IMG/VR virus record: IMGVR_UViG_3300010279_000462
DNA: 64,000 nucleotides
Direction: 5' to 3' (one strand)
DNA from: a virus
Taxonomy: Duplodnaviria; Heunggongvirae; Uroviricota; Caudoviricetes
Positions 12,517 through 29,671 of this stretch are shown here, in pieces. The notes under the pieces were generated by a model. The model searched no databases and was not told the origin of the DNA. It was given only the letters and a program-made list of their open reading frames with translations. Positions within the stretch are counted from its first letter, which is position 1; every line of letters begins with the position of its first letter. A program made the position numbers and the translations under genes.

Positions 12517-12519
12517 CCC

Positions 12520-15849: not shown

Positions 15850-18047
15850 GCAAGGAACAGAATATGACGCTGACCCTCGGAAGTCTGTTTTCAGGCTCCG
15901 GGGGTTTTGAATTGGGAGGGCTTCTTACCAATCAAATCGTGCCGGTATTCAATTCGGAGATTGAACCATTTGCCATCCGGGTCACGACCAAGCGTCTGCC
16001 GGAGGTCAAGCATTACGGAGATGTGTCTGCCCTGAACGGTGCAGACCTGCCACCTGTGGACATCATCACCTTTGGCAGTCCTTGTCAGGATATGTCCATT
16101 GCTGGCAAGCGAGATGGTCTGGATGGTTCACGGTCCAGCCTGTTCTATGAAGCAATCCGAATCGTGAAGGAAATGAGGTGTAAGACCAATGGAGCAAAAC
16201 CAAGATTTATCGTGTGGGAGAATGTGCCGGGCGCCTTCTCCTCCAACAAAGGACAAGACTTCAAGGCAGTCCTCGAAGCCGTCATCGGTGTTAAAGAACC
16301 GTCCGCCGAGGTGCCTGCGCCTGATAAAAAAGGCTGGCCCGACGCTGACTACTATCTGGGAGACGGATGGAGCGTCGCGTATCGAGTTCTTGATGCGCAG
16401 TGGTGGGGCGTGCCCCAACGCCGAAAACGCATCTACCTTGTCGCAGATTTTACAGACCACAGTGCCCCCAAAGTACTATTTGAGTCCGACGGCCTGTCTG
16501 GGTATTCTGCGGAGAGCTTCCGTGCGTGGCAAAGAGCTGCCGCCTGTGCTGAAGACAGCACTGGAACGGCAGGCGGCTGCGGAAGAATCTGCCTGAACGA
16601 CCAAGGCGGGGCGCAGATGGATGTGTCCGAAGAAGTGACCGGGACACTCCGTGCGCAGGAGCATGGGCATCAGCCCTGCGTCCTTGAAGCGGCTGGTTTC
16701 TGTACGGAACACTCCGCCAATGCCAGAAGCATCGGGTACGAGGAAGAACGGTCGCCTACACTCCGGGCCGGCGTTGTGCCAGCCGCCATTGCACTGGAAA
16801 ATCATCCGACCGACAGCCGGGTGAAGATTTCCAAGGATGGCATGGTGCAGACGCTGACCAGCCGGTGCGGCACGGGCGGTGGGAACGTTCCTCTGATCAT
16901 GGATGGCGCGGAGAATCCTCCAGCGGTCACCTTGAAGATCCGTTCCGGGTGCGAGGGTGGCGGCAAGGGAGCCATCTGGCAGGAGGACAAGTCCGCCACT
17001 CTTGGCTGTAATAACGACCAGACAGTTTTCGTGCCGAAGTGCTACGGTGTCTGCTCGAAAGCCAGCCATTCCATGATGAGCGACAATCCGCACAGCGGCT
17101 TCTATGAAGCCAGCACTTCCCGGACGCTGGATTGCAGCGGCGGTGACCCGACCTGTAATCAGGGTGGGCTGTGTATCTGCGAACCTGTTGTCTGCGTGGA
17201 TCAGGGCGGCGGCAAGTCCAACTGTACGGTAGACGAACAGGTTGCACCGCCGCTCGCCTGTACCCATGGAGGTTCACCGGCTGTGGCATTCACGCAGAAC
17301 CAGCGGGATGAAGTCAGAGATCTGGGCGAGAAAGCCGGCTCCCTGTCCGCACAGCCGGGAATGAAGCAGCAGACCTTCGTGGCGCAGCCGGAGGATGTGA
17401 CCGCGTTCCATGTGAACCAACGCAATGAACTCATTGACCTGCACGGAAAGTCCGGCGCGCTCATGGCGACCCGGAGCGACCAGATGCAGACCTTCGTGCT
17501 GCAGGGCAGCATGATCGGGCGCAGTGATGAGAACGGTCCGCAGGGGGATGGCATCAATGAGGATGTCTGCTTCACCCTGGATGCCACTGACCGTCACGCT
17601 GTTTGCGCTTCCAAGGATGTGTACGCTATGACCACCGGCTCCTTCATGAAGGTGGAGGAGAATGTGTCTCCAACCCTTATGGCGAGGGACTATAAAGACC
17701 CGACCACCATCGCGCCGGTGCCGCAGGATATCAGCTACACGGTCCGCCGCCTGACCCCGACCGAGTGTGCCCGGCTGCAGGGCTTTCCGGATTGGTGGTG
17801 CAGTGACCTCGAAACCGAGAATCCCACGGAAGCGGATATGGCTTTCTGGCAGGATGTGTTTGAAACGCACCGCAGACTTGTGACCCATGCCAAGAAGCCG
17901 AAAACGGAGAAGCAGATCCGCAAATGGCTGGCTGACCCGTATTCGGATGCGGCAGAGTATAAGCTCTGGGGCAACGGCGTTTCTTTGCCCATAGTTTTTT
18001 TCGTTCTAAGTGGCATCGTATGGGCAGCAAATAAGGATTTTTGTTAA
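15846..18047 (+). CDS. DNA (cytosine-5)-methyltransferase with a very large variable region (733 aa)
   Basis: Motifs FSGSGGF (I), GSPCQDMS (IV), ENVPG (VI), TECARLQGFPDWW (IX) and GNGVSLP (X) are present. The final ~24 codons are supplied by the RIT left inverted repeat. Confidence 0.85.
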   Translation: MSKEQNMTLTLGSLFSGSGGFELGGLLTNQIVPVFNSEIEPFAIRVTTKRLPEVKHYGDVSALNGADLPPVDIITFGSPCQDMSIAGKRDGLDGSRSSLFYEAIRIVKEMRCKTNGAKPRFIVWENVPGAFSSNKGQDFKAVLEAVIGVKEPSAEVPAPDKKGWPDADYYLGDGWSVAYRVLDAQWWGVPQRRKRIYLVADFTDHSAPKVLFESDGLSGYSAESFRAWQRAAACAEDSTGTAGGCGRICLNDQGGAQMDVSEEVTGTLRAQEHGHQPCVLEAAGFCTEHSANARSIGYEEERSPTLRAGVVPAAIALENHPTDSRVKISKDGMVQTLTSRCGTGGGNVPLIMDGAENPPAVTLKIRSGCEGGGKGAIWQEDKSATLGCNNDQTVFVPKCYGVCSKASHSMMSDNPHSGFYEASTSRTLDCSGGDPTCNQGGLCICEPVVCVDQGGGKSNCTVDEQVAPPLACTHGGSPAVAFTQNQRDEVRDLGEKAGSLSAQPGMKQQTFVAQPEDVTAFHVNQRNELIDLHGKSGALMATRSDQMQTFVLQGSMIGRSDENGPQGDGINEDVCFTLDATDRHAVCASKDVYAMTTGSFMKVEENVSPTLMARDYKDPTTIAPVPQDISYTVRRLTPTECARLQGFPDWWCSDLETENPTEADMAFWQDVFETHRRLVTHAKKPKTEKQIRKWLADPYSDAAEYKLWGNGVSLPIVFFVLSGIVWAANKDFC

Positions 18048-18064
18048 ATTATGAGCCGATAAAA
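17976..18064 (+). repeat. RIT left terminal inverted repeat
   Basis: 17979-18004 is the exact reverse complement of 21601-21626. Imperfect similarity continues inward to about 18064. Confidence 0.7.
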
Positions 18065-18098
18065 TTCCATGATACCAACCTTTTATGATAGCTGAAAA

Positions 18099-18130
18099 GC
18101 CGGTAAAAGTAAGACCTTACTTTTACCGGC
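18099..18130 (+). promoter_or_regulatory. perfect 15-bp-arm palindrome in the ritA leader, followed by TGTATAAT
   Basis: GCCGGTAAAAGTAAG-AC-CTTACTTTTACCGGC. TATAAT lies 8 bp downstream. Confidence 0.4.
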
Positions 18131-18183
18131 TCAGCCTGTATAATGATGTTAGTACCGAACATACAGATTAAAGGTGAGGCATA

Positions 18184-19443
18184 ATGGACAATTTTCTAAC
18201 TGAGACTTCTTCAGCGAAAGTTAAAGACACTCCTACAACTTATACCGTAAAGTCCTTGGTAGAGGACGCAACGACATTTCTTCAATCCAGGGGTGACTAC
18301 CGTGACCGCGTAGTGAACTATATCAAGGGAACATGGCATCAATTTGAAAATTACTGCGAAACCAATAGCATTTTATTCTACCAGTCTGAATACAGTAACA
18401 GATTCATTGAAAGCCTTTCTATTGGTTTACAGCCTCTCAAACCGGAAACCATTAAGCGTAAGGTGGGCAATCTTAAAATGCTCGACCTGTACGCAAAAAA
18501 TGGCACATGGGAGAAGGATGCATTAGATTCCAAACCTAACCTTGAAGCGGAATTTTCTGAATTCATCGCAGCACAGGATGAGTTCTTAAAAACACGTCAC
18601 TATTCGAAATTTTCTTGTGAAACCATTTGTAAACAGACAACAGCTGTACTGAATTATCTTCAGAATAATGAAATCACCAGTTTCTCGGAAATCACTAGTG
18701 ATATCATTTCTGACTATGCTATTTCACTGAAGGGTCATGCAAAAAGTACTATGCGCTGTGAACTCAGCCGAATTAGACAGATTTTGCATAATGCCTACCT
18801 TCTAAAGTATACCGCTGATGATTTGTCCACTTACGTCCCAACGTACAATCTTGGCCAACCCCAAAGCAATGTTAAAATATGGCATTCTAGCGAGATAAAC
18901 AGAGTTCTGTCTGCGGTGGATCGGTCAAATCCTAAAGGTTTGCGGGATGCCGCTTATATCACCATTGCAGCAGAACTTGGGATGCGAAGTAAGGACATTA
19001 CTGACCTTAAGCTTTCGGATATTGATTGGGAAACTTGCACTATCTCGTTTGTCCAGAGCAAAACCGGGAAAGTCAATCCCCTTCCGCTTAATGAAAAAAT
19101 TGGCCGCGCCATTATTGACTATCTGAAAGTCAGACCCGATACGGATTGTGAATACCTATTTGTGAATATGAATCCTCCGTATGGCAAAATGAAGTCGTTC
19201 AATTCATCATTTAACAAGTATGTCAGCCGCTCCGGAGTCACTATTCCTGTTAATGCTCACCATAATCTTCACTCGCTCCGGGCTACCGTTGCGACCAAAC
19301 TTTTGAAAGAGGGCGTATCTCCTGACGATATCGTTTCTTTTCTGGGGCATTCCGACAGGGAGTCGCTTCACAACTATATCCGTATGGATATAGACAGCCT
19401 CCGAAATTGTGCATTGTCTTTTGAGAATGGTGAGTTTGTATGA
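18184..19443 (+). CDS. ritA: tyrosine recombinase RitA-like
   Basis: 419 aa. RBS AGGTGAGG. Motifs HSLRAT...LGHSD...LHNY (R-H-R-Y). Confidence 0.8.
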   Translation: MDNFLTETSSAKVKDTPTTYTVKSLVEDATTFLQSRGDYRDRVVNYIKGTWHQFENYCETNSILFYQSEYSNRFIESLSIGLQPLKPETIKRKVGNLKMLDLYAKNGTWEKDALDSKPNLEAEFSEFIAAQDEFLKTRHYSKFSCETICKQTTAVLNYLQNNEITSFSEITSDIISDYAISLKGHAKSTMRCELSRIRQILHNAYLLKYTADDLSTYVPTYNLGQPQSNVKIWHSSEINRVLSAVDRSNPKGLRDAAYITIAAELGMRSKDITDLKLSDIDWETCTISFVQSKTGKVNPLPLNEKIGRAIIDYLKVRPDTDCEYLFVNMNPPYGKMKSFNSSFNKYVSRSGVTIPVNAHHNLHSLRATVATKLLKEGVSPDDIVSFLGHSDRESLHNYIRMDIDSLRNCALSFENGEFV

Positions 19444-20420
19444 TGCGGGTTTACAAATACACAAGTGGACTATCCACACAGATACAATCCTTTATAGAGG
19501 AAAAGCGTGCTCTTGGATGCAAGTATGAAAAGGAGGCCAAAGTCTTTTATGAAATGGACAGATTTCTAGTTAGGGAAGGAGTTGTTGAGCCAATCCTCAC
19601 TCAGAATGTGGTTGAAAAATGGGTAGAGAAGCGTCCCAACGAGAAAAGAAAAAATCAACGTTGGCGACTAAATTTTACCAAGCGTTTTGTAGCTTATCTT
19701 CTGCTTCACCACTATGAAGCGTATTATCCTGAATACAAAATTTCCTCAAGCGATGACAAATGCTTCGTGCCATACATTTTCACAAACACGGAAATTGGCG
19801 ACCTTATTGCATATTTTAATACCATGAAGCCAAGTAGACAGTATCCTAATGGCCATATCGTACTTCCCTTACTGTTTCTAACACTTATATGCTGTGGGTT
19901 GCGGTCTGGTGAAGTTGCATCGCTTACAGTTAATGATGTTGATATTAAAAACGGCATTCTCACAATCAGAAATGCCAAGCACGGGAAAAGTCGCAGTATT
20001 CCTATTTCTGAAAGTATGTGCCTCAAATATGCTGAATACTATGATTTACTCCATACTAACAGCGACGGTAAGGATTATTTCTTCCCGAATGCACGTGGCA
20101 ACTGTCATCACACCAATGAAATCGAACGCAGATTTAAGGAGGCGCTATGGAACTGCGGCATTCCTTATAAAGGACGCGGTTATGGTCCTAGAGTCCATGA
20201 TCTTCGCCATACTTTTGCAGTTCGCGCCATGCAGAAGATTCGGAAGGAAAAAGGAAGTAATCTTATGGCACTTCCATATCTGTCAGTCTATTTAGGGCAC
20301 TACAACATGAACAAAACACAGCAATATTTGCACCTTGTTGTGGATGCATATCCAGAATTAATTGAGAAGCAGCAAGATTACCTTGGCGAAACAATACCAG
20401 TATGGGAGGTTTCAGAATGA
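19440..20420 (+). CDS. ritB: tyrosine recombinase RitB-like
   Basis: 326 aa. ATGA overlap with ritA. Motifs RHTFAVRA...LGHYNMNKTQQY. Confidence 0.8.
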   Translation: MMRVYKYTSGLSTQIQSFIEEKRALGCKYEKEAKVFYEMDRFLVREGVVEPILTQNVVEKWVEKRPNEKRKNQRWRLNFTKRFVAYLLLHHYEAYYPEYKISSSDDKCFVPYIFTNTEIGDLIAYFNTMKPSRQYPNGHIVLPLLFLTLICCGLRSGEVASLTVNDVDIKNGILTIRNAKHGKSRSIPISESMCLKYAEYYDLLHTNSDGKDYFFPNARGNCHHTNEIERRFKEALWNCGIPYKGRGYGPRVHDLRHTFAVRAMQKIRKEKGSNLMALPYLSVYLGHYNMNKTQQYLHLVVDAYPELIEKQQDYLGETIPVWEVSE

Positions 20421-21436
20421 GAACACCGGACTTTTCAAAATACTTAACGATGTTCCTTGAACACTATCTTCCAGAACTTAAGAATGCCAGCGAGAATACC
20501 TTGGCAACATACAGCGACACTTTCTGCTATTTTCTAACTTATTGTCAGGATGTGGAAGCAATGAAAATTGAGCGAATGTCGGTCAGTGATTTCACTGCGG
20601 AACTTGTTGAAAGATACCTGCACTGGATGGAAACAAGCCAAGGCAATAGTCTTGCAACTCGGAATAACCGACTGGCTACAATCCATTCTTTCGTTAGATT
20701 TTTGCAGCCCAGGGAACCAAAACTGCTACTCAACTTTCAGAAGATTCTTGCAATTCCAACAAAGAAAGCACCACAAAAAACTGTGCAGCCTCTCTCAAAG
20801 GAATCTGTCGCTGTACTACTTCGTCAGCCAGACACATCTACTCTCAAGGGAAGAAGGGATGCAACTGTTCTATGCGTGTTGTATGATACGGCTGCTCGTG
20901 TATCGGAAATCTGCAATCTCCGCATAGAGGATGTGCGGTTTGAGAATCCTCCGCATATTCGCATAATGGGAAAAGGAATGAAAGTGCGTACAGTTCCTAT
21001 TTTGCCAGCGACAGCTATAAACTTAAAAAGCTACCTTATAGAAACGCATCGATTAAAGCCTGAGTGCTATCACTTGCCTCTTTTCGTTAACCGTGATGGA
21101 GAACCCTTTACACGGTCCGGAATCAGGTATATTTTAAACAAATACGTCAAAATGGCCCATGAAATAGATCCATCTATTCCCGAAAGTCTTAATCCCCATC
21201 GTATCAGACATACCAAGGCAATGCATCTATATGAGGCGGTTGATGACCTTATCGATGTCCGTGATTTTCTCGGCCATGCTGATATAAAAACTACAAGTAT
21301 CTACGCTAGATCCAGTCTTGCCAAAAAGAGGAAGGCACAAGAGAAGATTTCGAATTCTCCTGTGCCTGAGATGGCATCTTGGCAACAGGATAAAGGCACA
21401 CTCGAATGGCTTAAAAACTATGGGCGCAAGAAATAG
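20417..21436 (+). CDS. ritC: tyrosine recombinase RitC-like
   Basis: About 339 aa. RBS GGGAGG 7 nt upstream. ATGA overlap with ritB. Motifs HRIRHTKAM...LGHADIKTTSIY. Confidence 0.8.
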   Translation: MRTPDFSKYLTMFLEHYLPELKNASENTLATYSDTFCYFLTYCQDVEAMKIERMSVSDFTAELVERYLHWMETSQGNSLATRNNRLATIHSFVRFLQPREPKLLLNFQKILAIPTKKAPQKTVQPLSKESVAVLLRQPDTSTLKGRRDATVLCVLYDTAARVSEICNLRIEDVRFENPPHIRIMGKGMKVRTVPILPATAINLKSYLIETHRLKPECYHLPLFVNRDGEPFTRSGIRYILNKYVKMAHEIDPSIPESLNPHRIRHTKAMHLYEAVDDLIDVRDFLGHADIKTTSIYARSSLAKKRKAQEKISNSPVPEMASWQQDKGTLEWLKNYGRKK

Positions 21437-21540
21437 CAACGGAGCCCCAAATTATAGCAGGCAGATCAGGATAATTCTTGATCTGCTTTTTTATTGGTAT
21501 ACACCATTACCTATTTGATACTGACTGTAAGGGAGGCGGA

Positions 21541-21629
21541 TTTTATTGGCTTATTTTCTATGACAAATCTTTATTATATGCCCAAACTATTCCAGATAAG
21601 ACGAAAAAAACTATGGGCAAAGAAACACC
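21541..21629 (+). repeat. RIT right terminal inverted repeat
   Basis: Reverse complement aligns with 17976-18064. The outer 26 bp are exact and the inner part is imperfect. Confidence 0.7.
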
Positions 21630-21651
21630 ATTATCGGTTGCAATACATAAT

Positions 21652-21729
21652 GGCGTCGCACTGCCATGTGTCTATTTTGTGCTGGCCGGCATCGTGTGGG
21701 CGGCGCAGAATGCCGAGGAAACCCAATAA
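21652..21729 (+). pseudogene. displaced native 3' end of the C5-MTase gene (encodes GVALPCVYFVLAGIVWAAQNAEETQ*)
   Basis: About 70% nt identity to the element-borne MTase 3' end at 17976-18040. Its protein tail parallels GVSLPIVFFVLSGIVWAANKDFC*. Confidence 0.55.
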
Positions 21730-21859: not shown

Positions 21860-21890
21860 TTGCTATTTCATCGATTCAGAGCAATATATG
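21860..21890 (+). promoter_or_regulatory. promoter cassette copy (TTGCTA-N17/18-ATATAT)
   Basis: TGGCCTTGCTATTT, same family as copies at 23161, 25060 and 27084. Confidence 0.5.
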
Positions 21891-21923: not shown

Positions 21924-23006
21924 ATGAAAAAGTACGTTTTGAACATCGATGACCGCAAGGCACTGGTAGGCCGCCTGATGGAGCTGACTGGGCTGAGTTC
22001 CCAGTACACCTATATGCCGCGGTGTGCCTACCTTGTCGGCAACTACACCGTTGAGAAGGAGGGAACGCTTGTGACGGACGAAACCGCAGACCAGCAGGTC
22101 ATTGAGACCCTGCTGAACGAGGGCATCATCGTGGACCCTGATATGCCGACCCAGCAGCCGAGTGTGGCAGAAGCACCGCAGGACGAGATGCCCGGCGAGG
22201 TGACCGAACAGACCGATGCCGAGGAGGAAGCAACCGCCGAGGAATCCTCGGATGTTGAGGAAACCGATGACGAGGAGGAAGATGACACCCCTGATGAATC
22301 CACGGAGTCCGAAAGCGAGGATGTGGATGACCTGACGGTCAGCGTTCCTATGGCGGGTCACACTCCACAGAGCATCCGCAACTTCCTGAACCTGATGTAC
22401 AGCCGCGGACCGCTGCTGAACAAGGCTCTGGGAACGAATTTCTCGGTATCGGATGCTTTGCTGGAAGCCTTGGATCAGGCGACCATCCGCACGGTGAATG
22501 AGATGCTGGATGAGCTGGAGGAGTACCGCCTCGGTGCGGGAGATACCGGCATGACCGGCATCCTCATCCTGCCGGATAAGATCAGCCTGTGCTTCGCCGG
22601 ACCGCTGAGTTCGGAACAGGTGCGCGTCTGCACCCAGCTGACTTCCGCCATGAACCGCATGGCGATCACCCAGAAGCGGATTCAGGCAAAGACCGTGAAC
22701 GATGAGAACGAGAAGTACGCTTTACGCATCTGGCTCATCCGCTTGGGTCTGAATGGCAACGAACACAAGGAACTGCGCAGAGTCCTGATGCAGAACCTTT
22801 CCGGCCATGCCGCCTTCCGCACGGCAGAGGAAGCTGAGAAGTTCCGTATCAAGGAAAAGGCAAAGCGCGACAAGCTGAAAGCCGCGAAACAGGCGGCACA
22901 GGGCGGCGACGCCGATGCCGGGGAAACGGGCGAGGCGGAAGCAGACGCGCCCACACAGCCCGACTGTGGGGCGGACACGGCGCAGATGCTGGAAGCGGGA
23001 GCGTAA
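21924..23006 (+). CDS. protein with amidoligase C-terminal-like domain and acidic linker (paralog of the downstream amidoligase C-terminus)
   Basis: C-terminal ~110 aa (…NDENEKYALRIWLIRLGLNGNEHKELRRVLMQNL…) align with the amidoligase C-terminus (…TDNEKYAMRCWMLRLGFIGDEFKTAREILLRNM…). D/E-rich segment in the middle. Confidence 0.6.
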   Translation: MKKYVLNIDDRKALVGRLMELTGLSSQYTYMPRCAYLVGNYTVEKEGTLVTDETADQQVIETLLNEGIIVDPDMPTQQPSVAEAPQDEMPGEVTEQTDAEEEATAEESSDVEETDDEEEDDTPDESTESESEDVDDLTVSVPMAGHTPQSIRNFLNLMYSRGPLLNKALGTNFSVSDALLEALDQATIRTVNEMLDELEEYRLGAGDTGMTGILILPDKISLCFAGPLSSEQVRVCTQLTSAMNRMAITQKRIQAKTVNDENEKYALRIWLIRLGLNGNEHKELRRVLMQNLSGHAAFRTAEEAEKFRIKEKAKRDKLKAAKQAAQGGDADAGETGEAEADAPTQPDCGADTAQMLEAGA

Positions 23007-23160
23007 GCTCCTGACCCCTTATGGGGCCGGCAGATAACCGAGAGCCTTTTTCATTGTACCGATATTACCTCTGAAAATGTACATTATCAAGCGGATTTTC
23101 CGCAATAATGTACACGATCATTGCCCTCGAAGATCGGTGATTATTTGACCCTTTATGGCC

Positions 23161-23189
23161 TTGATATACACCCAACATGACGGTAATAT
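23161..23189 (+). promoter_or_regulatory. promoter cassette copy TTGATA-N17-TAATAT
   Basis: Exact 17-nt spacing. ATGTACA and TGTACACGATCA motifs lie upstream. Confidence 0.6.
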
Positions 23190-23236
23190 GCACATACCGC
23201 AAGGGGAACAGAACAAGACCAAAGGAGAAGAACACC

Positions 23237-24172
23237 ATGAACGATAAGACCAGAGAGCAGATTGAAGCCATGAAGAAGCAGACCATCGGGGTCGAGATCG
23301 AGATGAACAACATCACCCGCGAGAAGGCAGCCAGAAAGGTTGCGGATTACTTCGGAACGACAGCGTGGAATGCAGCCGCCCAGTACGGCTACATGAGCTG
23401 GGCTTGTAAAGACCAGCAGGGCAGGGTTTGGAAGTTCCAGCGGGACATCAGCATCCACGGACCGGACAGCGAGAAGTGCGAACTGGTGACCCCCATCCTT
23501 ACCTACGAAGACATCGAGACCTTGCAGGAAATCGTCCGACTGCTTCGCAAGGCGGGTGCAAAGTCCAGCCCCAGCAGAGGATGCGGAGTTCACATCCACA
23601 TCGGAAAGGGCGACCACGATGCAAAGACCCTGCGAAACTTGGTCAACATCATGGCAGCCCACGAGGAGCAAATCGGCAGAGCGATTCGCATCGATGAGGG
23701 ACGCACTGGTCACTACTGCCAAGTGGTCAACTACCACTTCCTCAAAGAGCTGAACCGCAGAAAGCCCACCACCATGACCCAGCTTGCCGACATCTGGTAC
23801 GAGGGCAACGATGCAGACTACGGCAGAACCCAGCACTACAATTCCAGCCGGTACCATATGCTCAACCTCCACGCAACCTTCACCAAGGGTACGATTGAGT
23901 TCCGGCTTTTCCAATTCGCAGACCCTTCGGACGGCAAGCAGAACGGGCTGCACGCCGGTGAGCTGAAGGCATACATCCAGCTTTGCCTTGCGATGAGCCA
24001 GCTTGCCAAGACGGTGCGCACGGCAAGCCCCAAGCCCCAGCAGACCGACAATGAAAAGTACGCGATGCGCTGCTGGATGCTTCGGCTGGGCTTCATCGGA
24101 GACGAATTCAAAACGGCAAGGGAAATCCTTCTGCGGAATATGGAGGGCAACGCTTCCTGGCGCAACGCATGA
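23237..24172 (+). CDS. amidoligase (Amidoligase_2 / GCS2-like carboxylate-amine ligase family)
   Basis: N-terminal IGVEIEMN motif and GCS2-like overall profile. Adjacent to two GGCT genes, the conserved neighbourhood described for phage amidoligases. RBS AAAGGAGAAG. Confidence 0.6.
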   Translation: MNDKTREQIEAMKKQTIGVEIEMNNITREKAARKVADYFGTTAWNAAAQYGYMSWACKDQQGRVWKFQRDISIHGPDSEKCELVTPILTYEDIETLQEIVRLLRKAGAKSSPSRGCGVHIHIGKGDHDAKTLRNLVNIMAAHEEQIGRAIRIDEGRTGHYCQVVNYHFLKELNRRKPTTMTQLADIWYEGNDADYGRTQHYNSSRYHMLNLHATFTKGTIEFRLFQFADPSDGKQNGLHAGELKAYIQLCLAMSQLAKTVRTASPKPQQTDNEKYAMRCWMLRLGFIGDEFKTAREILLRNMEGNASWRNA

Positions 24173-24241
24173 GCGCAGGAAGTTCGGGCACCTATCGGGC
24201 GGGCAACCGCCCTTTAGGCGGTAGAAGGAGGCAGCAAAACC

Positions 24242-24472
24242 ATGAAAAATCAGACAACCGAAAAAGCACCCGGCAGAAGCTTTCGGGTGGTCATCACCGA
24301 GACGCTCAAGCGGGTGGTCGAGGTCAACGAAAGCGAACTCAAGGAACCCACAATGGACGAAGCCATCCAAACCGTCAGCGACTGGTGGCACAACGAGCAG
24401 ATTGTTCTGGAAGCAGAGGATTTCGATGGCGTGGAATTCACGCCCGCGGAGGGCGGTGGACAGGATGACTGA
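24242..24472 (+). CDS. small acidic hypothetical protein
   Basis: 76 aa. RBS AGGAGG. Lies between the amidoligase and GGCT genes. Confidence 0.45.
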   Translation: MKNQTTEKAPGRSFRVVITETLKRVVEVNESELKEPTMDEAIQTVSDWWHNEQIVLEAEDFDGVEFTPAEGGGQDD

Positions 24473-25001
24473 CCGATTCCGGCTGAACCTTGACACCGCC
24501 AGCCGAAAGCCGACACGGTATTATCTTGCCTACGGCAGCAACCTCGACATGGAGCGTATGGGACACAGATGCCCCTACGCAGTCCCCATCGGAACGACCG
24601 AGATCTACGGCTACCGGCTCCTGTTCAAGAGGAGCAAGACCGGCAGCTACGCGACCATCGAGCAGGACGCCAACGAAAGCGTCCCGGCTGTGGTCTGGCT
24701 GCTCTCGGAATACGATGAGCGTCTGCTCGACGGGTACGAGGGCTGTCCGAGGTACTACTACAAGAAGCAGTTCCAGCTTCCGGTCTGGAATTTGGAAGGG
24801 CATCGGATGAAAAAACTGAAACCCTGCATGGCATACATCCTGCACGAAGAACGACTGCTGGGCTGCCCCAGCCGGGACTACTTCAAGCTGCTGGATGACG
24901 GATACGCAGATTGGGGATTTCCCAAGGATGTCCTCTGCCGCGGGCTTTGCGCCAGCATCGGCAGGGTGGCAGCCATGCAGTTTCTCGGAAACAGCGGATG
25001 A
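24465..25001 (+). CDS. gamma-glutamyl cyclotransferase (AIG2/GGCT-like) 1
   Basis: YYLAYGSNLDMERM...GYRLLF...YEGCPRYY is the GGCT signature. Confidence 0.75.
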   Translation: MTDRFRLNLDTASRKPTRYYLAYGSNLDMERMGHRCPYAVPIGTTEIYGYRLLFKRSKTGSYATIEQDANESVPAVVWLLSEYDERLLDGYEGCPRYYYKKQFQLPVWNLEGHRMKKLKPCMAYILHEERLLGCPSRDYFKLLDDGYADWGFPKDVLCRGLCASIGRVAAMQFLGNSG

Positions 25002-25059
25002 GTACAATATCCACGATCTTGTGAGGAAATCATTGTGCAGGATATGATGCACACCGGCC

Positions 25060-25090
25060 TTGCTATTTGAGCAAAACAGAGGCATATATA
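25060..25090 (+). promoter_or_regulatory. promoter cassette copy (TTGCTA ... ATATAT)
   Basis: CCGGCCTTGCTATTTGAGCAAAACAGAGGCATATATAG. Confidence 0.45.
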
Positions 25091-25134
25091 GCATACCGCC
25101 AGACAAGAGCGGAAAACGAAGGGAGATAAAGAAC

Positions 25135-25626
25135 ATGAATAAAACAAAGTATTACATCGCCTACGGCAGCAACCTGTCGGTAAAGCAGATGGCGCACCGA
25201 TGCCCGGATGCCCGCGTTGCGGGTCAGGCGGTGCTGGAAGACTGGGAACTGCTGTTCAAGGGCTGTGCGACCATCGAACCGAACAAGGAGAAGAACACGC
25301 CTGTTCTGGTGTGGGAGATCTCCGAGGAAGATGAGAAGCGGCTGGATGTCTACGAGGGCTACCCGCATTACTACCGCAAGGAAGACCTGACGGTCGAGGT
25401 GATTAGCGAGGGAGCAGAACCGAAAACGGTCACCGCCATGGTCTACATCATGGAGAACGACTTCGGGCATACCTGTCCGGCCATCAACTATTACGGAGTC
25501 CTGCATGACAGCTACAGGGCTTTGCATTTCCCGATGCACGTCCTTGAGGGTGCGCTGAAGAAGTGCATCGGCAAGGAGGCGGCAGCCCGGATGATCAAGG
25601 AGGTGCAGCACAATGTTTCCGAATGA
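25135..25626 (+). CDS. gamma-glutamyl cyclotransferase (AIG2/GGCT-like) 2
   Basis: YYIAYGSNLSVKQMAHRCP...YEGYPHYY. Confidence 0.75.
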   Translation: MNKTKYYIAYGSNLSVKQMAHRCPDARVAGQAVLEDWELLFKGCATIEPNKEKNTPVLVWEISEEDEKRLDVYEGYPHYYRKEDLTVEVISEGAEPKTVTAMVYIMENDFGHTCPAINYYGVLHDSYRALHFPMHVLEGALKKCIGKEAAARMIKEVQHNVSE

Positions 25627-26071
25627 GAACACCGTAAAAGCCCTGCGCGCGAAGTTCCCGGTCGGCTGCCGTGTGGTGCTGGACCAGATGGACGATGTGC
25701 AGGCCCCGCCCATCGGGACGCAGGGAACCTGCCGAGGCGTGGATGATGCCGGCTCCGTAATGGTCGCGTGGGATTCAGGCGGAAGCCTGAGCGTTGCCTA
25801 TGGCGCGGACAGTTGCCACCGTGTGGCTTCCGAAGAAGAAATCAAGGTGTCGCTCGACCACATCGGTAAAACGCGACACAGGGGCGCATTTTGCCCCAGG
25901 TGCGGAACCAGAGTGGACAAGGAGTATGGACACCAGCTTCAGGCAGTCAGCCGGGTGGCGGACATCCTGATTTGCAACACTTGTGGAACGTCAGAAGCGA
26001 TGGAGGCTTTCCGTGGCAATCAGACGCCCCTTGCTGACTGGGCAATTGTGAAAGCGGGGTGGGTCGAATGA
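25613..26071 (+). CDS. hypothetical conserved phage protein (DUF4314-like)
   Basis: RBS AAGGAGG. VVLDQMDD...GTQG motif and a CPRCG...CNTCG zinc ribbon. Confidence 0.45.
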   Translation: MFPNENTVKALRAKFPVGCRVVLDQMDDVQAPPIGTQGTCRGVDDAGSVMVAWDSGGSLSVAYGADSCHRVASEEEIKVSLDHIGKTRHRGAFCPRCGTRVDKEYGHQLQAVSRVADILICNTCGTSEAMEAFRGNQTPLADWAIVKAGWVE

Positions 26072-26439
26072 AGGTGCTTTTGGTCGAACCGATGAAGCAC
26101 CCGCAGGAGATTGATATTCAGCCGGAGCTGAAAGAGTACTACCGAATCCTCGACTGCGACTGCATCACGGCGACCTACCCTTGGGTGGAGCCGATGGCGT
26201 TGGTGACCGATGACAACGGCCTCTTTACGGACAAGCTTTTCAGCCGGTTCATCCCGGAACTGCAGCAGGCCATCCGGGGCAGCTTCTTCCTCTGCGGGAT
26301 CGGTGGGGAGGACTTTACCGACCTGCCGCCGGACCTGATGGAGAAGTTCAAGAAGCGGTTCTGGTACCCGGAAGCCTTCATCCGAACCGCCAAAGGCATG
26401 ATGGCCTTCCGGCTGGCCGATGACGCACAGCCCGAATAA
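26069..26439 (+). CDS. hypothetical phage protein (DUF3846-like)
   Basis: Starts MKVLLVEPMK. 123 aa. Start overlaps the upstream stop. Confidence 0.4.
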
Positions 26440-26935: not shown

Positions 26936-27083
26936 GGTCGTGTCCTCCGTTTTCCTTGTGTGTTTCTTTCCTTTCGGTGACTGTATATTCGCTCTAAAAC
27001 ACATATTTATCAAGGCCATTACGCGATATAAATCCACCAAAGAATGCCCCGGATGATTGGCGATAATATGATGTTTTATGGCC

Positions 27084-27112
27084 TTGCTATTCTTCGGACA
27101 TGACGGTAATAT
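27084..27112 (+). promoter_or_regulatory. promoter cassette copy TTGCTA-N17-TAATAT
   Basis: Exact spacing. TTTATGGCCTTGCTATTC subfamily. Confidence 0.6.
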
Positions 27113-27143
27113 GCACATACCGAAACGGAAAGGAGCAAACAAC

Positions 27144-27350
27144 ATGGAACGCTACACCTACGAGATCACCTTCACCCGGCTGGACGGCCAGCCCGAAGAA
27201 GTCCAGCAGTACACCGACGAGGGCTTTGCCAGAGAATGCTTCCGGCTTTTCGATGAGCCGGACAGCGCAGAGATGTACAGCCGCATCCGCCTGACCCGCC
27301 ACGACTGGGAAACCGGCACGGACGAGACGCTGGAAACCTTGGAATTCTGA
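27144..27350 (+). CDS. small acidic hypothetical protein (68 aa)
   Basis: RBS GGAAAGGAGC. First gene behind the promoter copy. Confidence 0.55.
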   Translation: MERYTYEITFTRLDGQPEEVQQYTDEGFARECFRLFDEPDSAEMYSRIRLTRHDWETGTDETLETLEF

Positions 27351-27365
27351 AAGGAGAGAACGAAC

Positions 27366-27905
27366 ATGGATAAGAACTGGAACAAGGCCCGCCTTGATGA
27401 ACTGGCAGCCGATTTTGGCAGCGCGGCATCCCGCCGCAAGCTGGTTCAGGAATTCGGGGATTACCCCGATGCCCTGTGGGGCAACAACGAGAACGGTGAG
27501 AAGGTGATGCTTTCCATCCGGAAGGACGGTCTCACCGAGCGTGTGTTCCAAAACAACCACTGGGTGCGCGTCAGCGAGTACGGTGCGGAAGGACAGATGG
27601 AGGGTGAGACCTACGAGGGGCGGCGGGCTGAATGCCCGAAGCCGACCGAGACCGAACCGGAGGAGCTGGAACTTTCGGACGCGCAGAACGCCCGCAACGA
27701 TGAAATCTACAACGCCGCCTTCGATTTCTGCAAGGTGATGGCCGAGGATGAGAACCTTGAATGGAACATGGAGATCATTGGACAGCTTGCGGACTTTGCC
27801 GCAGAACTCCTGACCGCCCACGGCAGCCGCGTCCGCTTCCCCTCGGTGGTCATCGAGCCGGATGATACCCAGCACATCGAAGAATACTACAGCGAGGAAC
27901 AGTGA
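27366..27905 (+). CDS. acidic hypothetical protein (179 aa)
   Basis: RBS AAAGGAGAG. Co-transcribed with the 27144 gene. Confidence 0.55.
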   Translation: MDKNWNKARLDELAADFGSAASRRKLVQEFGDYPDALWGNNENGEKVMLSIRKDGLTERVFQNNHWVRVSEYGAEGQMEGETYEGRRAECPKPTETEPEELELSDAQNARNDEIYNAAFDFCKVMAEDENLEWNMEIIGQLADFAAELLTAHGSRVRFPSVVIEPDDTQHIEEYYSEEQ

Positions 27906-27951
27906 CACATTTGCCCGAACACAAGGCTGAATGATCGTGTACATTAGCCAC

Positions 27952-27980
27952 TTGCTATTGCCGAACCGTGACGGTAATAT
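27952..27980 (+). promoter_or_regulatory. promoter cassette copy TTGCTA-N17-TAATAT
   Basis: Preceded by GAATGATCGTGTACATT. Confidence 0.6.
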
Positions 27981-28011
27981 ACAGCTACCAAAACGAAAGG
28001 GGTACGAAACC

Positions 28012-28272
28012 ATGACCTACACGAAAATCAGCCTTTACACTTCCAACGGAATCCCGGAGGCACTCAGCAATCTTTGGTACGGAGCAGAAAGCTCGGTGGT
28101 CGAGATTCGGGATGCGGTCGAAGATGCCGAAAACGGCAAAGACCTCCTGCGGCGGCTGGGTGACATAAAGCTCCTGCGGCGGTTCACCCTCGACCGGGAG
28201 AACGAGCAGAGAATTCGACTGAAAAGCACGGACTGCTTCGGGAATGTAAGCTACCTTGAAATCCGAAAGTAA
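28012..28272 (+). CDS. small hypothetical protein (86 aa)
   Basis: RBS AAAGGGG. Starts MTYTKIS. Confidence 0.5.
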   Translation: MTYTKISLYTSNGIPEALSNLWYGAESSVVEIRDAVEDAENGKDLLRRLGDIKLLRRFTLDRENEQRIRLKSTDCFGNVSYLEIRK

Positions 28273-28390
28273 GCGGAAGGACGGGCAGGAGCAAGGGGCT
28301 GGGAAACCGGCCTTTTGCTCGTGTCCGCTCAGTAAAAAGTCGCCCGAATATGTACAAATCATCCGGCAAATGATCGTGTGATCTAGCCGC

Positions 28391-28419
28391 TTGATAGTGT
28401 GCGGACGTGACGGTAATAT
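28391..28419 (+). promoter_or_regulatory. promoter cassette copy TTGATA-N17-TAATAT
   Basis: Upstream ATGTACA...AATGATCGTGTGA. The leader contains GGGGGAAAGCCCC. Confidence 0.65.
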
Positions 28420-28480
28420 ACAGTCACCGCAAGGGGGAAAGCCCCACGGACGACAAAAAACAACGCTGGAGGATACAAAA

Positions 28481-28924
28481 ATGAAGAAGAACGAAGACCG
28501 CATCAACAAACTTTTCGAGGAGCTGGTTCCCATTAGCGGCAAGGCCGACAGCCTCGCCGGGGAGCTGGTCAGAGCCATCAGCCGCATCGGATACCGATTC
28601 TACAACGACGGCGACCTTGTGAACATTGGGTACGGCAAGGAAACCTGCAACCCGGCAGCCCGCTTCCTGATCGCCAAGGGCAATAACGAGATTTCCGACC
28701 TGACGGTTGCCCTTTGGGAAATCTTCAGCGAGGACGCCTACGAAAAGGTGCTGGACACCTTGGAAGGCGCGGTTGCCGACTACATCGAGCAGAACCCCGA
28801 CCTTCGCAAGCAGCCCACCGAAGATATGTGGAGCTTCCGGGATGCGGAAGAAGACAAGGATGACAGCTGGCTAGAGGAAGATGACTGCGAGGAAGACTAC
28901 TACGACGAGGCAGAAGATTTCTAA
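28481..28924 (+). CDS. acidic hypothetical protein (147 aa)
   Basis: RBS GGAGGA. Starts MKKNEDR. Confidence 0.55.
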   Translation: MKKNEDRINKLFEELVPISGKADSLAGELVRAISRIGYRFYNDGDLVNIGYGKETCNPAARFLIAKGNNEISDLTVALWEIFSEDAYEKVLDTLEGAVADYIEQNPDLRKQPTEDMWSFRDAEEDKDDSWLEEDDCEEDYYDEAEDF

Positions 28925-28938
28925 AACACACCAGACAG

Positions 28939-28970
28939 GGGAGCTTGCCGGAAACGGCGGCTCCTTTTCT
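28939..28970 (+). terminator. terminator-like GC hairpin followed by TTTTCTT
   Basis: GGAGCTTGCCG-GAAA-CGGCGGCTCC then TTTTCTT. Confidence 0.45.
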
Positions 28971-29030
28971 TGTGTCAGAACCCGTAAATGTACACCGATC
29001 TGAGGGCGAATGATCGTGTAGTATAGCCGC

Positions 29031-29059
29031 TTGATAATGTGGGACCGTGACGGTAATAT
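29031..29059 (+). promoter_or_regulatory. promoter cassette copy TTGATA-N17-TAATAT
   Basis: Upstream AATGTACA...GAATGATCGTGTAGTATAGCCGC. Confidence 0.65.
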
Positions 29060-29091
29060 ACACTCACAAAAACGAAAGCGAGGAAACGAAC

Positions 29092-29286
29092 ATGAAAAAG
29101 AAGACCCTTACCAAGAAGCAGCAGGAAGCCCTCCTGGAGATTGCCAAGCGCCTGATGGCATCGGTGGACAGCCGCGGCGACCTTGAGGAACGCGGATGCG
29201 ACAGCGAGGACTTCATCGAGGTTCCGGTCTGGGGCATCCAGAAGGCTATGGAGGAAGCCTACCTTCTGGGCAAAGCGAGCCGGTAA
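29092..29286 (+). CDS. small hypothetical protein (64 aa)
   Basis: RBS GCGAGGAAACG. Starts MKKKTLT. Confidence 0.5.
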   Translation: MKKKTLTKKQQEALLEIAKRLMASVDSRGDLEERGCDSEDFIEVPVWGIQKAMEEAYLLGKASR

Positions 29287-29397
29287 GCCCCAGACAGCCC
29301 CCACAAAGGGGCGCAGAAACAAGCAAGCAACGACCCAAGCCAGACCGCACAAGCCCCACGGAGGGGCTGTGTGGCGGCGTGGGGAAAGGACGGAGGA

Positions 29398-29622
29398 ATG
29401 AAGAACATGGAAGAAATCATGATGGATATCATCGTGGAAATCTACAACCACATGGATGAGGGCGACAAAGAAGCCTTCACGCTGGAGGATGCCAAGGAGA
29501 TGGTCGAAGACCAGATCCGGATGGATAAGGAGGCTGGTCGGGAACCGCTGGACTACGACCCACAGTTCTTCTACGACAACATCGTGGACCTCATGGAGCA
29601 GGATGCCGAGGACGAGGATTGA
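29398..29622 (+). CDS. small highly acidic hypothetical protein (about 74 aa)
   Basis: RBS GGACGGAGGA. Starts MKNMEE. Confidence 0.45.
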   Translation: MKNMEEIMMDIIVEIYNHMDEGDKEAFTLEDAKEMVEDQIRMDKEAGREPLDYDPQFFYDNIVDLMEQDAEDED

Positions 29623-29671
29623 TGTACATTCTGCCCGGTATTCCGGGCAGATGATCGTGTAGTATAGCCGC

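What the first reader, a model, noticed from the sequence alone, without database searches (positions are those of the whole stretch)
21924..25626. Amidoligase, two GGCT-like cyclotransferases and an amidoligase-C-domain paralog: a candidate peptide/metabolite-modification module
A GCS2/amidoligase-type ligase (N-terminal IGVEIEMN) is followed by a 76-aa acidic protein and two AIG2/GGCT-fold enzymes (YxAYGSNL...YEG.P.YY). It is preceded by a 360-aa protein whose C-terminal ~110 aa are paralogous to the amidoligase C-terminus, joined to an unrelated N-terminus and a D/E-rich linker. Several of these genes have their own copy of the conserved promoter cassette. Amidoligase-GGCT neighbourhoods have been predicted computationally in phages but have no demonstrated function. 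The extra C-domain paralog may be a substrate, scaffold or regulatory partner. This is a candidate novel modification or anti-defence system.
Basis: partly seen in the sequence, partly recalled or inferred. Interest (0 to 1): 0.75.

Follow-up and report, generated by a model that had tools for sequence, protein, structure and literature searches.

The report
Phage amidoligase–cyclotransferase module with dead paralogue
A gut-bacterial phage carries an ATP-dependent ligase next to two gamma-glutamyl cyclotransferases, a gene pairing already predicted by others but never tested, plus a catalytically dead copy of the ligase that is widespread in its own right.

Summary
Gene 23237-24172 is a strong Amidoligase_2 match (E 2.4e-55) with a GS/GCL-type fold and all conserved acidic, His and Arg residues. 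Genes 24465-25001 and 25135-25626 are GGCT-fold enzymes that keep the YGSNL motif and the catalytic Glu. The 76-aa gene belongs to the DpnD/PcfM family.

The window is a temperate siphophage of gut Clostridia, related to Ca. Heliusvirales. The module sits between the methyltransferases and the terminase.

Ligase plus cyclotransferase is an invariant pair: 78 of 78 related viral loci have it. The pairing is already annotated in Pfam and PHROGs and in published prophages. I found no experimental function for it.

The main correction concerns the 360-aa protein. It is not a C-domain fused to an unrelated N-terminus. It is a colinear, catalytically dead paralogue of the whole ligase, with a variable acidic disordered insert. 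It is not tied to the ligase: 16 of 45 genome loci carry it without ligase or cyclotransferase. Its most constant neighbour is DUF4314 (37 of 45).

Most likely chemistry: the ligase makes a gamma-glutamyl amide on an unknown amine, and the cyclotransferases resolve it to 5-oxoproline. The biological role is untested. This is a new member of a known, uncharacterised kind.

The parts
21860..21887 (+). Promoter-like site upstream of the dead paralogue (TTGCTA, 16 nt, CAATAT). It is a degenerate version of the repeated cassette.
   Evidence: Sequence read. In the alignment with the other cassettes only the CTTG.TA and ATAT cores are invariant. Homology to related phages resumes at 21718, so the site lies outside the inserted recombinase element.
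21924..23006 (+). pAL: a 360-aa, catalytically degenerate, full-length paralogue of the amidoligase. Relatives in some phage records are annotated 'virulence-related protein'.
21924..22139 (+). pAL N-terminal domain (residues 1-72, beta-alpha-beta3-alpha).
   Evidence: AF2 pLDDT is about 88. The domain is conserved in 136 of 150 family representatives. Its best local profile match is to the topologically equivalent ligase segment 21-77, but this is weak (E 0.003, prob 10%). The order of secondary-structure elements is colinear with the ligase model.
22140..22319 (+). Acidic disordered insert (residues 73-132).
   Evidence: 27 D+E and 0 K+R in 60 residues. pLDDT is 25-34. Across 131 family members the insert is 0-197 aa long (median 52), with 35% D+E and 3% K+R.
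22320..22898 (+). pAL C-terminal half (residues 133-325), homologous to ligase residues 117-311. It includes the shared C-terminal helical module (NEKYAxRxWLxRLG...R...L..NL.G..AFR).
   Evidence: Invariant pAL-family residues G212, E263, G275, R285 and G294 lie here. In the shared module, identity between the ligase and pAL families is 35%, against 58% and 46% within each family.
23062..23090 (-). Reverse-oriented promoter-like copy (TTGATA, 17 nt, TAATAT) that points into the 3' end of pAL.
   Evidence: Promoter scan and sequence. Function unknown.
23122..23208 (+). Conserved promoter cassette upstream of the amidoligase (hexamers at 23161-23189).
   Evidence: It is 78% identical to the copy at 27045-27131. 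It carries an exact match to the 15-mer that occurs 7 times in the window. The promoter scan finds TTGATA, 17 nt, TAATAT.
23237..24172 (+). AL: a 311-aa Amidoligase_2 enzyme, a GS/GCL-fold carboxylate-amine ligase.
24242..24472 (+). DpnD/PcfM-like 76-aa acidic protein.
   Evidence: Pfam E 1.6e-11 and pI 4.28. It is present in only 22 of 71 related loci, and its tail is variable.
24465..25001 (+). G1: a GGCT-fold cyclotransferase of 178 aa. Its start overlaps the stop of the previous gene by 8 nt.
   Evidence: Pfam GGACT E 3.6e-8 and phrog_2520 E 5e-36. It matches human GGCT 2pn7 at E 2.8e-5, with YGSNL aligned and the Glu of YEG aligned to the catalytic position.
25019..25048 (+). Promoter-like site upstream of G2 (TTGTGA, 18 nt, TATGAT).
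   Evidence: A degenerate cassette (the CTTGCTAT and ATAT cores) aligns about 40 nt further downstream in the same interval.
25135..25626 (+). G2: a second GGCT-fold cyclotransferase of 163 aa.
   Evidence: Pfam GGACT E 1.4e-12 and phrog_2520 E 2.6e-41. It is 39% identical to G1. In the alignment to human GGCT the E98Q mutant entry 3cry lines up with the Glu of YEG. A second cyclotransferase is present in 29 of 71 related loci.
25613..26071 (+). DUF4314 domain (residues 5-70) with a C-terminal Cys-rich, zinc-ribbon-like tail.
   Evidence: Pfam E 9.8e-26. A DUF4314 gene lies within the module in 43 of 53 viral loci and 37 of 45 genome loci. It is fused to a cyclotransferase in locus L119.
26059..26439 (+). 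DUF3846 protein, a looser neighbour of the module.
   Evidence: Pfam E 8.1e-22. Present in 19 of 53 related loci.

Best explanation
This is a conserved accessory module of temperate siphophages of gut Clostridia. The window's phage is related to Ca. Heliusvirales and to streptococcal Javan-type prophages. The module lies between the SAM-synthetase and DNA-methyltransferase block and the packaging genes.

Its enzymatic core is a two-step gamma-glutamyl unit.
- Step 1. The Amidoligase_2 enzyme (AL) is an ATP-dependent GS/GCL-fold carboxylate-amine ligase. It most likely activates the gamma-carboxyl of glutamate and joins it to an amine that is still unidentified. That amine could be an amino acid, another small amine, or a protein amino group.
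- Step 2. The one or two GGCT-fold enzymes directly downstream attack the gamma-glutamyl amide, releasing 5-oxoproline and the free amine. They would therefore erase, limit or process the ligase product.

The 360-aa protein (pAL) is an ancient, full-length paralogue of the ligase. It has lost the metal-binding and catalytic residues and gained a variable acidic disordered insert. It acts non-catalytically, probably as a binding or adaptor protein together with the small DUF4314 protein. It does not strictly need the ligase.

What is shown: the family and fold assignments, residue conservation and loss, and the gene-neighbourhood statistics. What is inferred: glutamate as the carboxylate substrate, the coupling of ligase product to cyclotransferase substrate, and any role in host takeover or counter-defence.
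For: Ligase identity:
- Pfam Amidoligase_2 at E 2.4e-55.
- The E-x-E, E, H-x-H and E-x-R residues are invariant in 37 diverse relatives.

Cyclotransferases:
- Pfam and PHROG matches.
- Alignment to human GGCT, with the YGSNL motif and the catalytic Glu in place.
- Both motifs are kept in all 132 unique homologues in related loci (the 12 regex misses are YGSNI or N-x-Y-E-G variants on inspection).

Coupling:
- A cyclotransferase lies directly downstream of the ligase in 78 of 78 viral loci.
- A cyclotransferase was never found without a ligase in 45 genome loci, whereas the ligase occurs without a cyclotransferase in 7.
- In proteobacterial phages the same ligase family sits beside a class-II glutamine amidotransferase and an AIG2 protein (PMC3890496). 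Those are also enzymes that break gamma-glutamyl amides.

pAL as a dead paralogue:
- Profile homology, a GS-superfamily fold and colinear secondary structure.
- The catalytic positions are replaced or deleted across 42 family members.

pAL independence and the DUF4314 link:
-, plus a cyclotransferase-DUF4314 fusion.

Phage context.
Against: - No substrate is identified, and nothing here shows that glutamate is the carboxylate donor.
- The mapping of conserved ligase residues onto known catalytic residues of GCL or GS rests on motif order, not on a residue-level structural superposition.
- Homology of the pAL N-terminal domain to the ligase N-terminus is weak on sequence alone (E 0.003, probability 10%).
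- If the two enzymes simply act in series on free amino acids, the net reaction is a futile ATP-driven conversion of glutamate to 5-oxoproline, and the benefit to a phage is unclear.
- Ligase-only loci show that the cyclotransferase is dispensable in some phages.
- The loci sampled are the best 80 hits of each scan, so the percentages describe close and moderately distant relatives, not the whole family.
Confidence: 0.6

Rival explanations
1. The 360-aa paralogue is a dedicated substrate, scaffold or regulatory subunit of the amidoligase, for example in a heteromer where a dead subunit completes or targets the active one. The whole set would then be one modification or anti-defence system.
For: pAL lies directly upstream of AL in 50 of 65 viral loci. 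The two share a conserved C-terminal helical module lying outside the Pfam domain. GS-superfamily enzymes are typically oligomers, and dead-paralogue partners are common (established knowledge). The module sits among methyltransferases and small acidic genes that have their own promoters.
Against: pAL occurs with no ligase or cyclotransferase within 3.5 kb downstream in 16 of 45 genome loci. It also does so in Streptococcus and Clostridium phages. Conversely, 15 of 65 ligase loci lack pAL. No interaction could be tested here. PADLOC has no related model, and no anti-defence evidence exists.
Confidence: 0.25
2. An auxiliary metabolic gene set. The phage reprograms host gamma-glutamyl, glutamate or nitrogen metabolism, for example by making and recycling gamma-glutamyl dipeptides or draining glutamate to 5-oxoproline.
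For: GCL-like ligase plus GGCT are two consecutive enzymes of the gamma-glutamyl cycle (established knowledge). Published genome papers label these genes as host-metabolism genes or AMGs (PMC11318856; PMC10580990).
Against: Those labels are annotations, not experiments. The ligase belongs to a phage and mobile-element family rather than being a copy of a host gene: NCBIfam gives no hit and PHROG 2443 is the best match. The net reaction would be a futile cycle. The association with a dead paralogue, DUF4314 and DpnD/PcfM is not metabolic in character.
Confidence: 0.12
3. Cell-envelope modification for superinfection exclusion. The ligase adds an amino acid to a peptidoglycan or surface precursor, so that other phages cannot adsorb.
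For: This suggestion is attributed to Iyer et al. 2009 for phage amidoligase clusters and is repeated in PMC11318856 and PMC10580990.
Against: None of the module's proteins was seen to have envelope or secretion features. The module sits in the early, DNA-metabolism part of the genome, not in a lysogeny or moron position. I found no experiment.
Confidence: 0.08
4. DNA hypermodification. The ligase decorates an amine-bearing modified base in phage DNA, as suspected for amidoligases found next to thymidine-hypermodification genes.
For: Amidoligase and amidotransferase genes co-occur with thymidine-hypermodification genes in viral contigs (PMC8989533). Here the module follows a SAM synthetase and three DNA methyltransferases.
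Against: Among the large ORFs scanned there is no 5-hmdU kinase, dUMP hydroxymethylase, aGPT-Pplase, TET/JBP or deazaguanine gene. A cyclotransferase that removes the group again has no obvious place in a DNA-modification pathway.
Confidence: 0.04
5. A Pup-like protein-tagging system. The ligase acts like PafA, the dead paralogue stands in for Dop, and the 76-aa DpnD/PcfM protein is a tag joined through a C-terminal glutamate.
Against: The tails are not conserved: they end in ADV, VGD, VDR, GTA and others. The small gene is present in only 22 of 71 loci. pAL lacks the active-site residues that Dop retains. A GGCT enzyme cannot cyclise a glutamate whose alpha-amine is in a peptide bond (established chemistry).
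Confidence: 0.03

Closest known systems
Amidoligase_2 (PF12224) with an AIG2/GGCT neighbour in Firmicutes, predicted computationally by Iyer, Abhiman, Burroughs and Aravind 2009 (Mol Biosyst). The paper is not held in the library and the Pfam family description is recalled from memory.
   Same: The ligase family, the adjacent cyclotransferase, and a Firmicutes prophage setting are all the same. The identical arrangement (SAM synthetase, DNA methylase, 'virulence-related protein', amidoligase, AIG2/GGCT, terminase) is tabulated for the prophage-like part of C. difficile Tn6164 (PMC3485107). It is also tabulated for C. clostridioforme prophages (PMC11318856).
   Different: Nothing essential differs for the ligase-cyclotransferase pair. 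What I add is the second cyclotransferase copy, the dead paralogue recognised as such, and the DUF4314 link. I did not find these described.
LUZ24 / phiEco32-type cluster of proteobacterial phages (COOH-NH2_lig, Amidoligase_2, class-II glutamine amidotransferase, ATP-grasp, AIG2)
   Same: An Amidoligase_2 ligase sits next to enzymes that cleave gamma-glutamyl amides, in the early region of a phage. The function is also unknown (PMC3890496; PMC10580990).
   Different: That cluster has three ligases plus an amidotransferase. Here there is one active ligase, no amidotransferase and no ATP-grasp enzyme. Instead there is a dead ligase paralogue, DUF4314 and DpnD/PcfM.
Gamma-glutamyl cycle enzymes: glutamate-cysteine ligase followed by gamma-glutamyl cyclotransferase
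   Same: The two folds occur in the same order. The predicted chemistry also matches: ATP-dependent formation of a gamma-glutamyl amide, then cyclisation to 5-oxoproline.
Butirosin BtrJ/BtrG: a gamma-glutamyl protecting group added by a ligase and removed by a GGCT-fold cyclotransferase (from memory)
   Same: The logic of a ligase that adds glutamate and a cyclotransferase that later removes it as 5-oxoproline.
   Different: BtrJ is an ATP-grasp enzyme, not GS-fold. That pathway needs a carrier protein and further tailoring enzymes, none of which is present here.
PafA/Dop of the pupylation system
   Different: Dop keeps an active site and is a hydrolase, whereas pAL has lost the conserved residues. 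There is no conserved Pup-like tag and no proteasome context.

Membership tests
Amidoligase_2 (PF12224), for 23237-24172 | Score above Pfam's gathering threshold over the whole domain | tested here: met
   188.5 bits against a cut-off of 22. The match covers profile positions 2-244 of 245.
Amidoligase_2 / GS-GCL carboxylate-amine ligase superfamily, for 23237-24172 | Glutamine-synthetase / glutamate-cysteine-ligase type fold | tested here: met
Amidoligase_2 / GS-GCL carboxylate-amine ligase superfamily, for 23237-24172 | Conserved acidic, His and Arg residues on the barrel strands (E-x-E, E, H, E-x-R) | tested here: met
   E20, E22, E82, H119, H121, E221 and R223 are invariant in 37 diverse relatives. 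Their equivalence to the metal and ATP ligands of GCL is inferred from motif order, not from a superposition.
Amidoligase_2 / GS-GCL carboxylate-amine ligase superfamily, for 23237-24172 | ATP-dependent ligation of a carboxylate to an amine | not testable with these tools
   This needs an enzyme assay. No solved or characterised close relative exists in the PDB by sequence or profile.
Amidoligase_2, for the 360-aa protein 21924-23006 | Score above Pfam's gathering threshold | tested here: not met
   No Pfam family at E up to 0.01. It is homologous only at profile-profile level and through PHROG 2443.
Amidoligase_2, for the 360-aa protein 21924-23006 | Conserved catalytic residues of the ligase family | tested here: not met
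   In 42 family members the ligase positions change as follows: E22 to K/E/R, H119 to T/S/E, H121 to S, E221 to T/I, and R223 to T/S. E20, E82, D92, R156 and Y201 fall in gaps. I therefore file it as a pseudoenzyme paralogue, not a ligase.
GGCT-fold cyclotransferases (Pfam GGACT PF06094 / AIG2_2), for 24465-25001 and 25135-25626 | Score above the gathering threshold | tested here: met
   34.4 and 48.7 bits against 22.8 for PF06094. The AIG2_2 hits are below its cut-off.
GGCT-fold cyclotransferases, for 24465-25001 and 25135-25626 | YGS(N)L substrate-pocket motif and the catalytic glutamate | tested here: met
   YGSNL and the Glu of YEG align with human GGCT. The E98Q mutant entry 3cry marks the position. 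Both motifs are kept in all 132 unique homologues.
GGCT-fold cyclotransferases, for 24465-25001 and 25135-25626 | Release of 5-oxoproline from a gamma-glutamyl amide | not testable with these tools
   Needs an enzyme assay.
Predicted Firmicutes amidoligase-AIG2 neighbourhood (Iyer et al. 2009 / Pfam PF12224 text) | Ligase and cyclotransferase genes adjacent and co-directional in Firmicutes mobile elements | tested here: met
   78 of 78 viral loci and 22 of 45 genome loci seeded by pAL, all in Clostridia. The wording of the original prediction is recalled from memory.
DpnD/PcfM (PF14207), for 24242-24472 | Score above the gathering threshold | tested here: met
   44.5 bits against 25.
Pup-like tagging system | A small tag with a conserved C-terminal GGQ or GGE, and a catalytically competent Dop-like paralogue | tested here: not met
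   The tails of 24 DpnD-like neighbours are variable. pAL lacks the active-site residues.
Known anti-phage defence systems (PADLOC-DB) | A match to any defence-system protein model | tested here: not met
   No hit for any of the 7 module proteins at E up to 0.01.
Ca. Heliusvirales (the phage carrying the module) | TerL in the Heliusvirales clade (HMM bit score above 700 in the defining paper) plus the marker genes | tested here: inconclusive
   TerL is 75.9% identical to that of a NatCom Heliusvirales phage, but equally close to streptococcal Javan phages. The ligase region hits more than 30 Heliusvirales records. PolA, helicase, portal, ClpP-like protease and capsid genes are present. The paper's HMMs were not available.

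The most novel reading that the evidence does not exclude
The ligase is a phage-encoded writer that gamma-glutamylates a host or phage protein, or another amine-bearing target, early in infection. The cyclotransferases are its erasers. The dead paralogue with its acidic tail, together with DUF4314, is a widespread non-catalytic binder that recognises or blocks the same target. That would explain why it persists in phages that have lost the enzymes. On this reading the module is a reversible gamma-glutamyl modification system used for host takeover or counter-defence in one of the most prevalent phage lineages of the human gut.
Probability: 0.15. Interest if true: 0.8.

Novelty: new member of a known kind. 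Interest (0 to 1): 0.4.

Why it matters
The ligase-cyclotransferase pair is very common in gut phages. The dead paralogue family spans 2380 clusters at 50% identity. None of these proteins has a known function, and none has a solved close relative.

Showing what the ligase joins would assign a function to a large block of viral dark matter. It would also test a computational prediction that has stood since 2009.

Two practical gains from this analysis:
- Genes annotated as 'amidoligase' under PHROG 2443, or as 'virulence-related protein', are often the dead paralogue and should not be read as enzymes.
- The module separates into two sub-units, ligase with cyclotransferase and dead paralogue with DUF4314, and these can be tested separately.

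Tried and rejected
- Pup-like tag. I considered the 76-aa protein as a tag because of its GGGQDD tail and the GGE tails in some relatives. I rejected this because the tails vary and the gene is present in only 31% of loci.
- Fusions. I looked for informative fusions in long pAL relatives and found none. Their extra length is linker. DUF4314 relatives are almost all stand-alone small proteins.
- hmmalign. Aligning pAL to the ligase HMM placed only the C-terminal module. I used the global hhalign mapping instead.
- Databases with no match. PADLOC and NCBIfam gave nothing for any module protein. PDB sequence and profile searches found no solved relative of AL or pAL.
- Literature. Iyer et al. 2009 is not held in the library. 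The polyvalent-protein paper does not mention these domains. The jumbo-phage paper only cites Iyer 2009. The Heliusvirales paper does not mention the module. No paper in the library mentions DUF4314. A search for cyclotransferase plus phage anti-defence found nothing relevant.
- Plasmids. tblastn found only 5 weak or partial matches, so this is not a plasmid-borne system.
- Antisense ORF. The long ORF at 23153-24496 on the minus strand (447 aa) overlaps the ligase. I treat it as spurious because all family evidence is on the + strand.
- Not possible.

Full report
**What is there**

On the + strand the region encodes, in order:
- a 360-aa protein, here called pAL (21924-23006);
- a 311-aa amidoligase, AL (23237-24172);
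- a 76-aa acidic protein (24242-24472);
- two GGCT-fold proteins, G1 (24465-25001) and G2 (25135-25626);
- a DUF4314 protein (25613-26071) and a DUF3846 protein (26059-26439).

Pfam gives Amidoligase_2 at E 2.4e-55 for AL and DpnD/PcfM at E 1.6e-11 for the 76-aa protein. It gives GGACT at E 3.6e-8 and 1.4e-12 for G1 and G2, and nothing for pAL. G1 and G2 are 39% identical.

**Genomic setting**

The window is a phage, not a conjugative element.
- Upstream lie PolA, DUF932, an SNF2 helicase, a D5-type primase, a SAM synthetase and three DNA methyltransferases.
- Downstream lie TerL, portal, a ClpP-like protease, capsid, tape measure, lysin and a serine recombinase.
- The ligase region matches more than 30 Ca. 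Heliusvirales gut phages.
- TerL is about 75% identical both to a Heliusvirales phage and to streptococcal Javan prophages.

**The ligase**

Seventeen polar residues are invariant across 37 diverse relatives: E20, E22, R28, R63, D70, S72, E82, D92, H119, H121, R156, Y201, R205, N210, H212, E221 and R223. The E-x-E, E, H and E-x-R pattern is the one carried by the barrel strands of GCL and GS. That equivalence is from memory of those structures; no residue-level superposition was done.

**The cyclotransferases**

G1 aligns with human GGCT at E 2.8e-5. The YGSNL motif and the Glu of YEG fall on the pocket motif and the catalytic glutamate, and the E98Q mutant entry marks that position. All 132 unique homologues collected from related loci keep both motifs.

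**The 360-aa protein is a dead, full-length paralogue**

Profile-profile comparison extends the homology to 167 columns, pairing pAL residues 136-302 with AL residues 117-311 (prob 98.8, E 7.5e-17). A global alignment of 42 short family members to the ligase family is colinear over the whole length (E 2.4e-36).

The N-terminal domain alone gives only a weak match (E 0.003). That match is, however, to the topologically equivalent ligase segment. The two AF2 models have the same order of secondary-structure elements.

At the ligase's conserved positions the pAL family has variable residues or gaps. H119 becomes T/S/E, H121 becomes S, E221 becomes T/I, and R223 becomes T/S. E20 and E82 are deleted.

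The acidic segment is an insert between the N-terminal domain and the strand equivalent to GVHIHIG. Across 131 relatives it is 0-197 aa long, with 35% D+E and 3% K+R.

In the shared C-terminal module, identity is 58% within the ligase family and 46% within the pAL family. Between the two it is 35%. The duplication is therefore old.

**Neighbourhood statistics**

In 80 viral loci seeded with the ligase:
- a cyclotransferase lies directly downstream in 78 of 78;
- pAL lies upstream in 50 of 65;
- DUF4314 is present in 43 of 53;
- a second cyclotransferase is present in 29 of 71;
- the DpnD-like gene is present in 22 of 71.

The 80 genome loci seeded with pAL are nearly all from Clostridia, and the four I inspected gene by gene look like related prophages. 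Of the 45 with enough flanking sequence:
- 22 have ligase plus cyclotransferase;
- 7 have a ligase only;
- 16 have neither;
- 37 have DUF4314;
- none has a cyclotransferase without a ligase.

One genome encodes a cyclotransferase-DUF4314 fusion.

pAL relatives are annotated 'virulence-related protein' in Streptococcus phage Javan630, where a DUF4314 gene lies next to it. The same annotation appears in Clostridium phage CWou-2020b. In both, the gene occupies the same slot between the methyltransferase and the terminase.

The module therefore splits into two units: ligase with cyclotransferase, and pAL with DUF4314.

**Mechanism**

Every characterised enzyme among the ligase's structural neighbours acts on a glutamate gamma-carboxyl. 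GGCT-fold enzymes act on gamma-glutamyl amides that have a free alpha-amine (established knowledge). The strict adjacency of the two genes fits a shared intermediate. So does the one-way dependence of the cyclotransferase on the ligase.

On this model the ligase makes gamma-glutamyl-X and the cyclotransferase converts it to 5-oxoproline plus X. In proteobacterial phages the same ligase family is instead paired with a class-II amidotransferase and an AIG2 protein, which fits the same logic.

What X is, and what the phage gains, is unknown. Ligase-only loci suggest that the ligase product is the functional output and that the cyclotransferase limits or removes it. pAL cannot be a ligase. Because it persists without the enzymes, it more likely has a binding role of its own than a role as a dedicated ligase subunit.

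**Comparison with what is known**

The ligase-cyclotransferase pair is the neighbourhood described in the Pfam entry and attributed to Iyer et al. 2009 (recalled from memory; the paper is not held). It has been tabulated in prophages since 2012 and is in PHROGs. Papers up to 2024 still state or imply that the function is unexplored. I found no experiment and no solved structure.

I did not find three points described elsewhere:
- that pAL is a dead paralogue;
- that pAL is independent of the ligase;
- that pAL is linked to DUF4314.

These are refinements within a known, uncharacterised kind.

**Promoter cassette**

The exact 15-mer TGACGGTAATATRCA occurs 7 times in the window, against 0.07 expected by chance. 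Within the module it precedes only AL. pAL and G2 have degenerate copies that keep the CTTG.TA and ATAT cores. The likely transcription units are therefore pAL; then AL, DpnD and G1; then G2, DUF4314 and DUF3846.

**Verdict**

This is a new member of a known but functionally untested kind. It is of moderate interest because of its prevalence in gut phages and because it is easy to test.

Noticed in passing
window 17975-21717: A low-GC segment (0.41-0.43, against about 0.55 elsewhere) carries three consecutive tyrosine-recombinase-like ORFs (18184-19443, 19440-20420, 20402-21436). The family call is from reading the translations; Pfam was not run on them. The segment is flanked by 93-nt inverted repeats (17973-18065 and 21540-21632) and is absent from the closest related phages L004 and L005. 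It looks like a recombinase-in-trio type mobile element inserted between the C5 methyltransferase and the module. The methyltransferase ORF runs 73 nt into it.
   Followed up: partly
window 27045-30259: An array of short, mostly acidic genes. Each is preceded by a 76-102 nt conserved cassette, with starts at 27045, 27924, 28363, 29003, 29644 and 30151; the last four are spaced 507-641 nt apart. None of the three proteins I scanned has a Pfam match. Neither the regulator nor the timing of these promoters is known.
   Followed up: partly
window 23062-23090 (- strand) and 26967-27020 (- strand): Reverse-oriented copies of the promoter cassette. The first sits in the pAL-AL intergenic region and points into the 3' end of pAL, so it could make an antisense transcript. 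The second faces a small acidic ORF on the minus strand, ending at 26684.
   Followed up: no
window 30805-32022: An AAA_14 / DUF4143 ATPase gene lies in a lower-GC stretch (0.458) just before the terminase. It may be a second insertion or a defence-type cargo gene.
   Followed up: no
L119 10032-10703: A single 223-aa ORF in a Lachnospiraceae genome fuses a GGCT domain (residues 3-154) to a DUF4314 domain (residues 156-221). This ties DUF4314 to the enzymatic part of the module. Only one example was seen.
   Followed up: partly
L127 10030-10692, L136 2363-3031, L137 10025-10690: These cyclotransferases carry a different conserved C-terminal extension of about 75 aa (GGW..GD.CF...) and are followed by a separate DUF4314 gene.
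   Followed up: no
L143, L148, L149, L151, L152, L157 (e.g. L157 7719-9653): A compact variant has pAL (285 aa), then a 285-287 aa ligase with all conserved residues intact, then DUF4314, and no cyclotransferase.
   Followed up: partly
L162 3704-4291 (Streptococcus phage Javan630) and L163 3758-4480 (Clostridium phage CWou-2020b): pAL-family proteins of 195 and 240 aa are annotated 'virulence-related protein' in public records, and PHROG 2443 labels the family 'amidoligase enzyme'. Both names are misleading for a protein that lacks the catalytic residues.
   Followed up: yes
window 11290-18047: A SAM synthetase is followed by a ParB-N6/N4 methyltransferase, a second N6/N4 methyltransferase and a 733-aa C5 methyltransferase. 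This is the methylation block typical of this phage lineage, directly upstream of the module.
   Followed up: no
L087, L093, L094, L096 (DpnD-like genes next to the ligase): Several DpnD/PcfM-like neighbours end in the residues GGE, as some Pup proteins do. The feature is not conserved across the family.
   Followed up: yes
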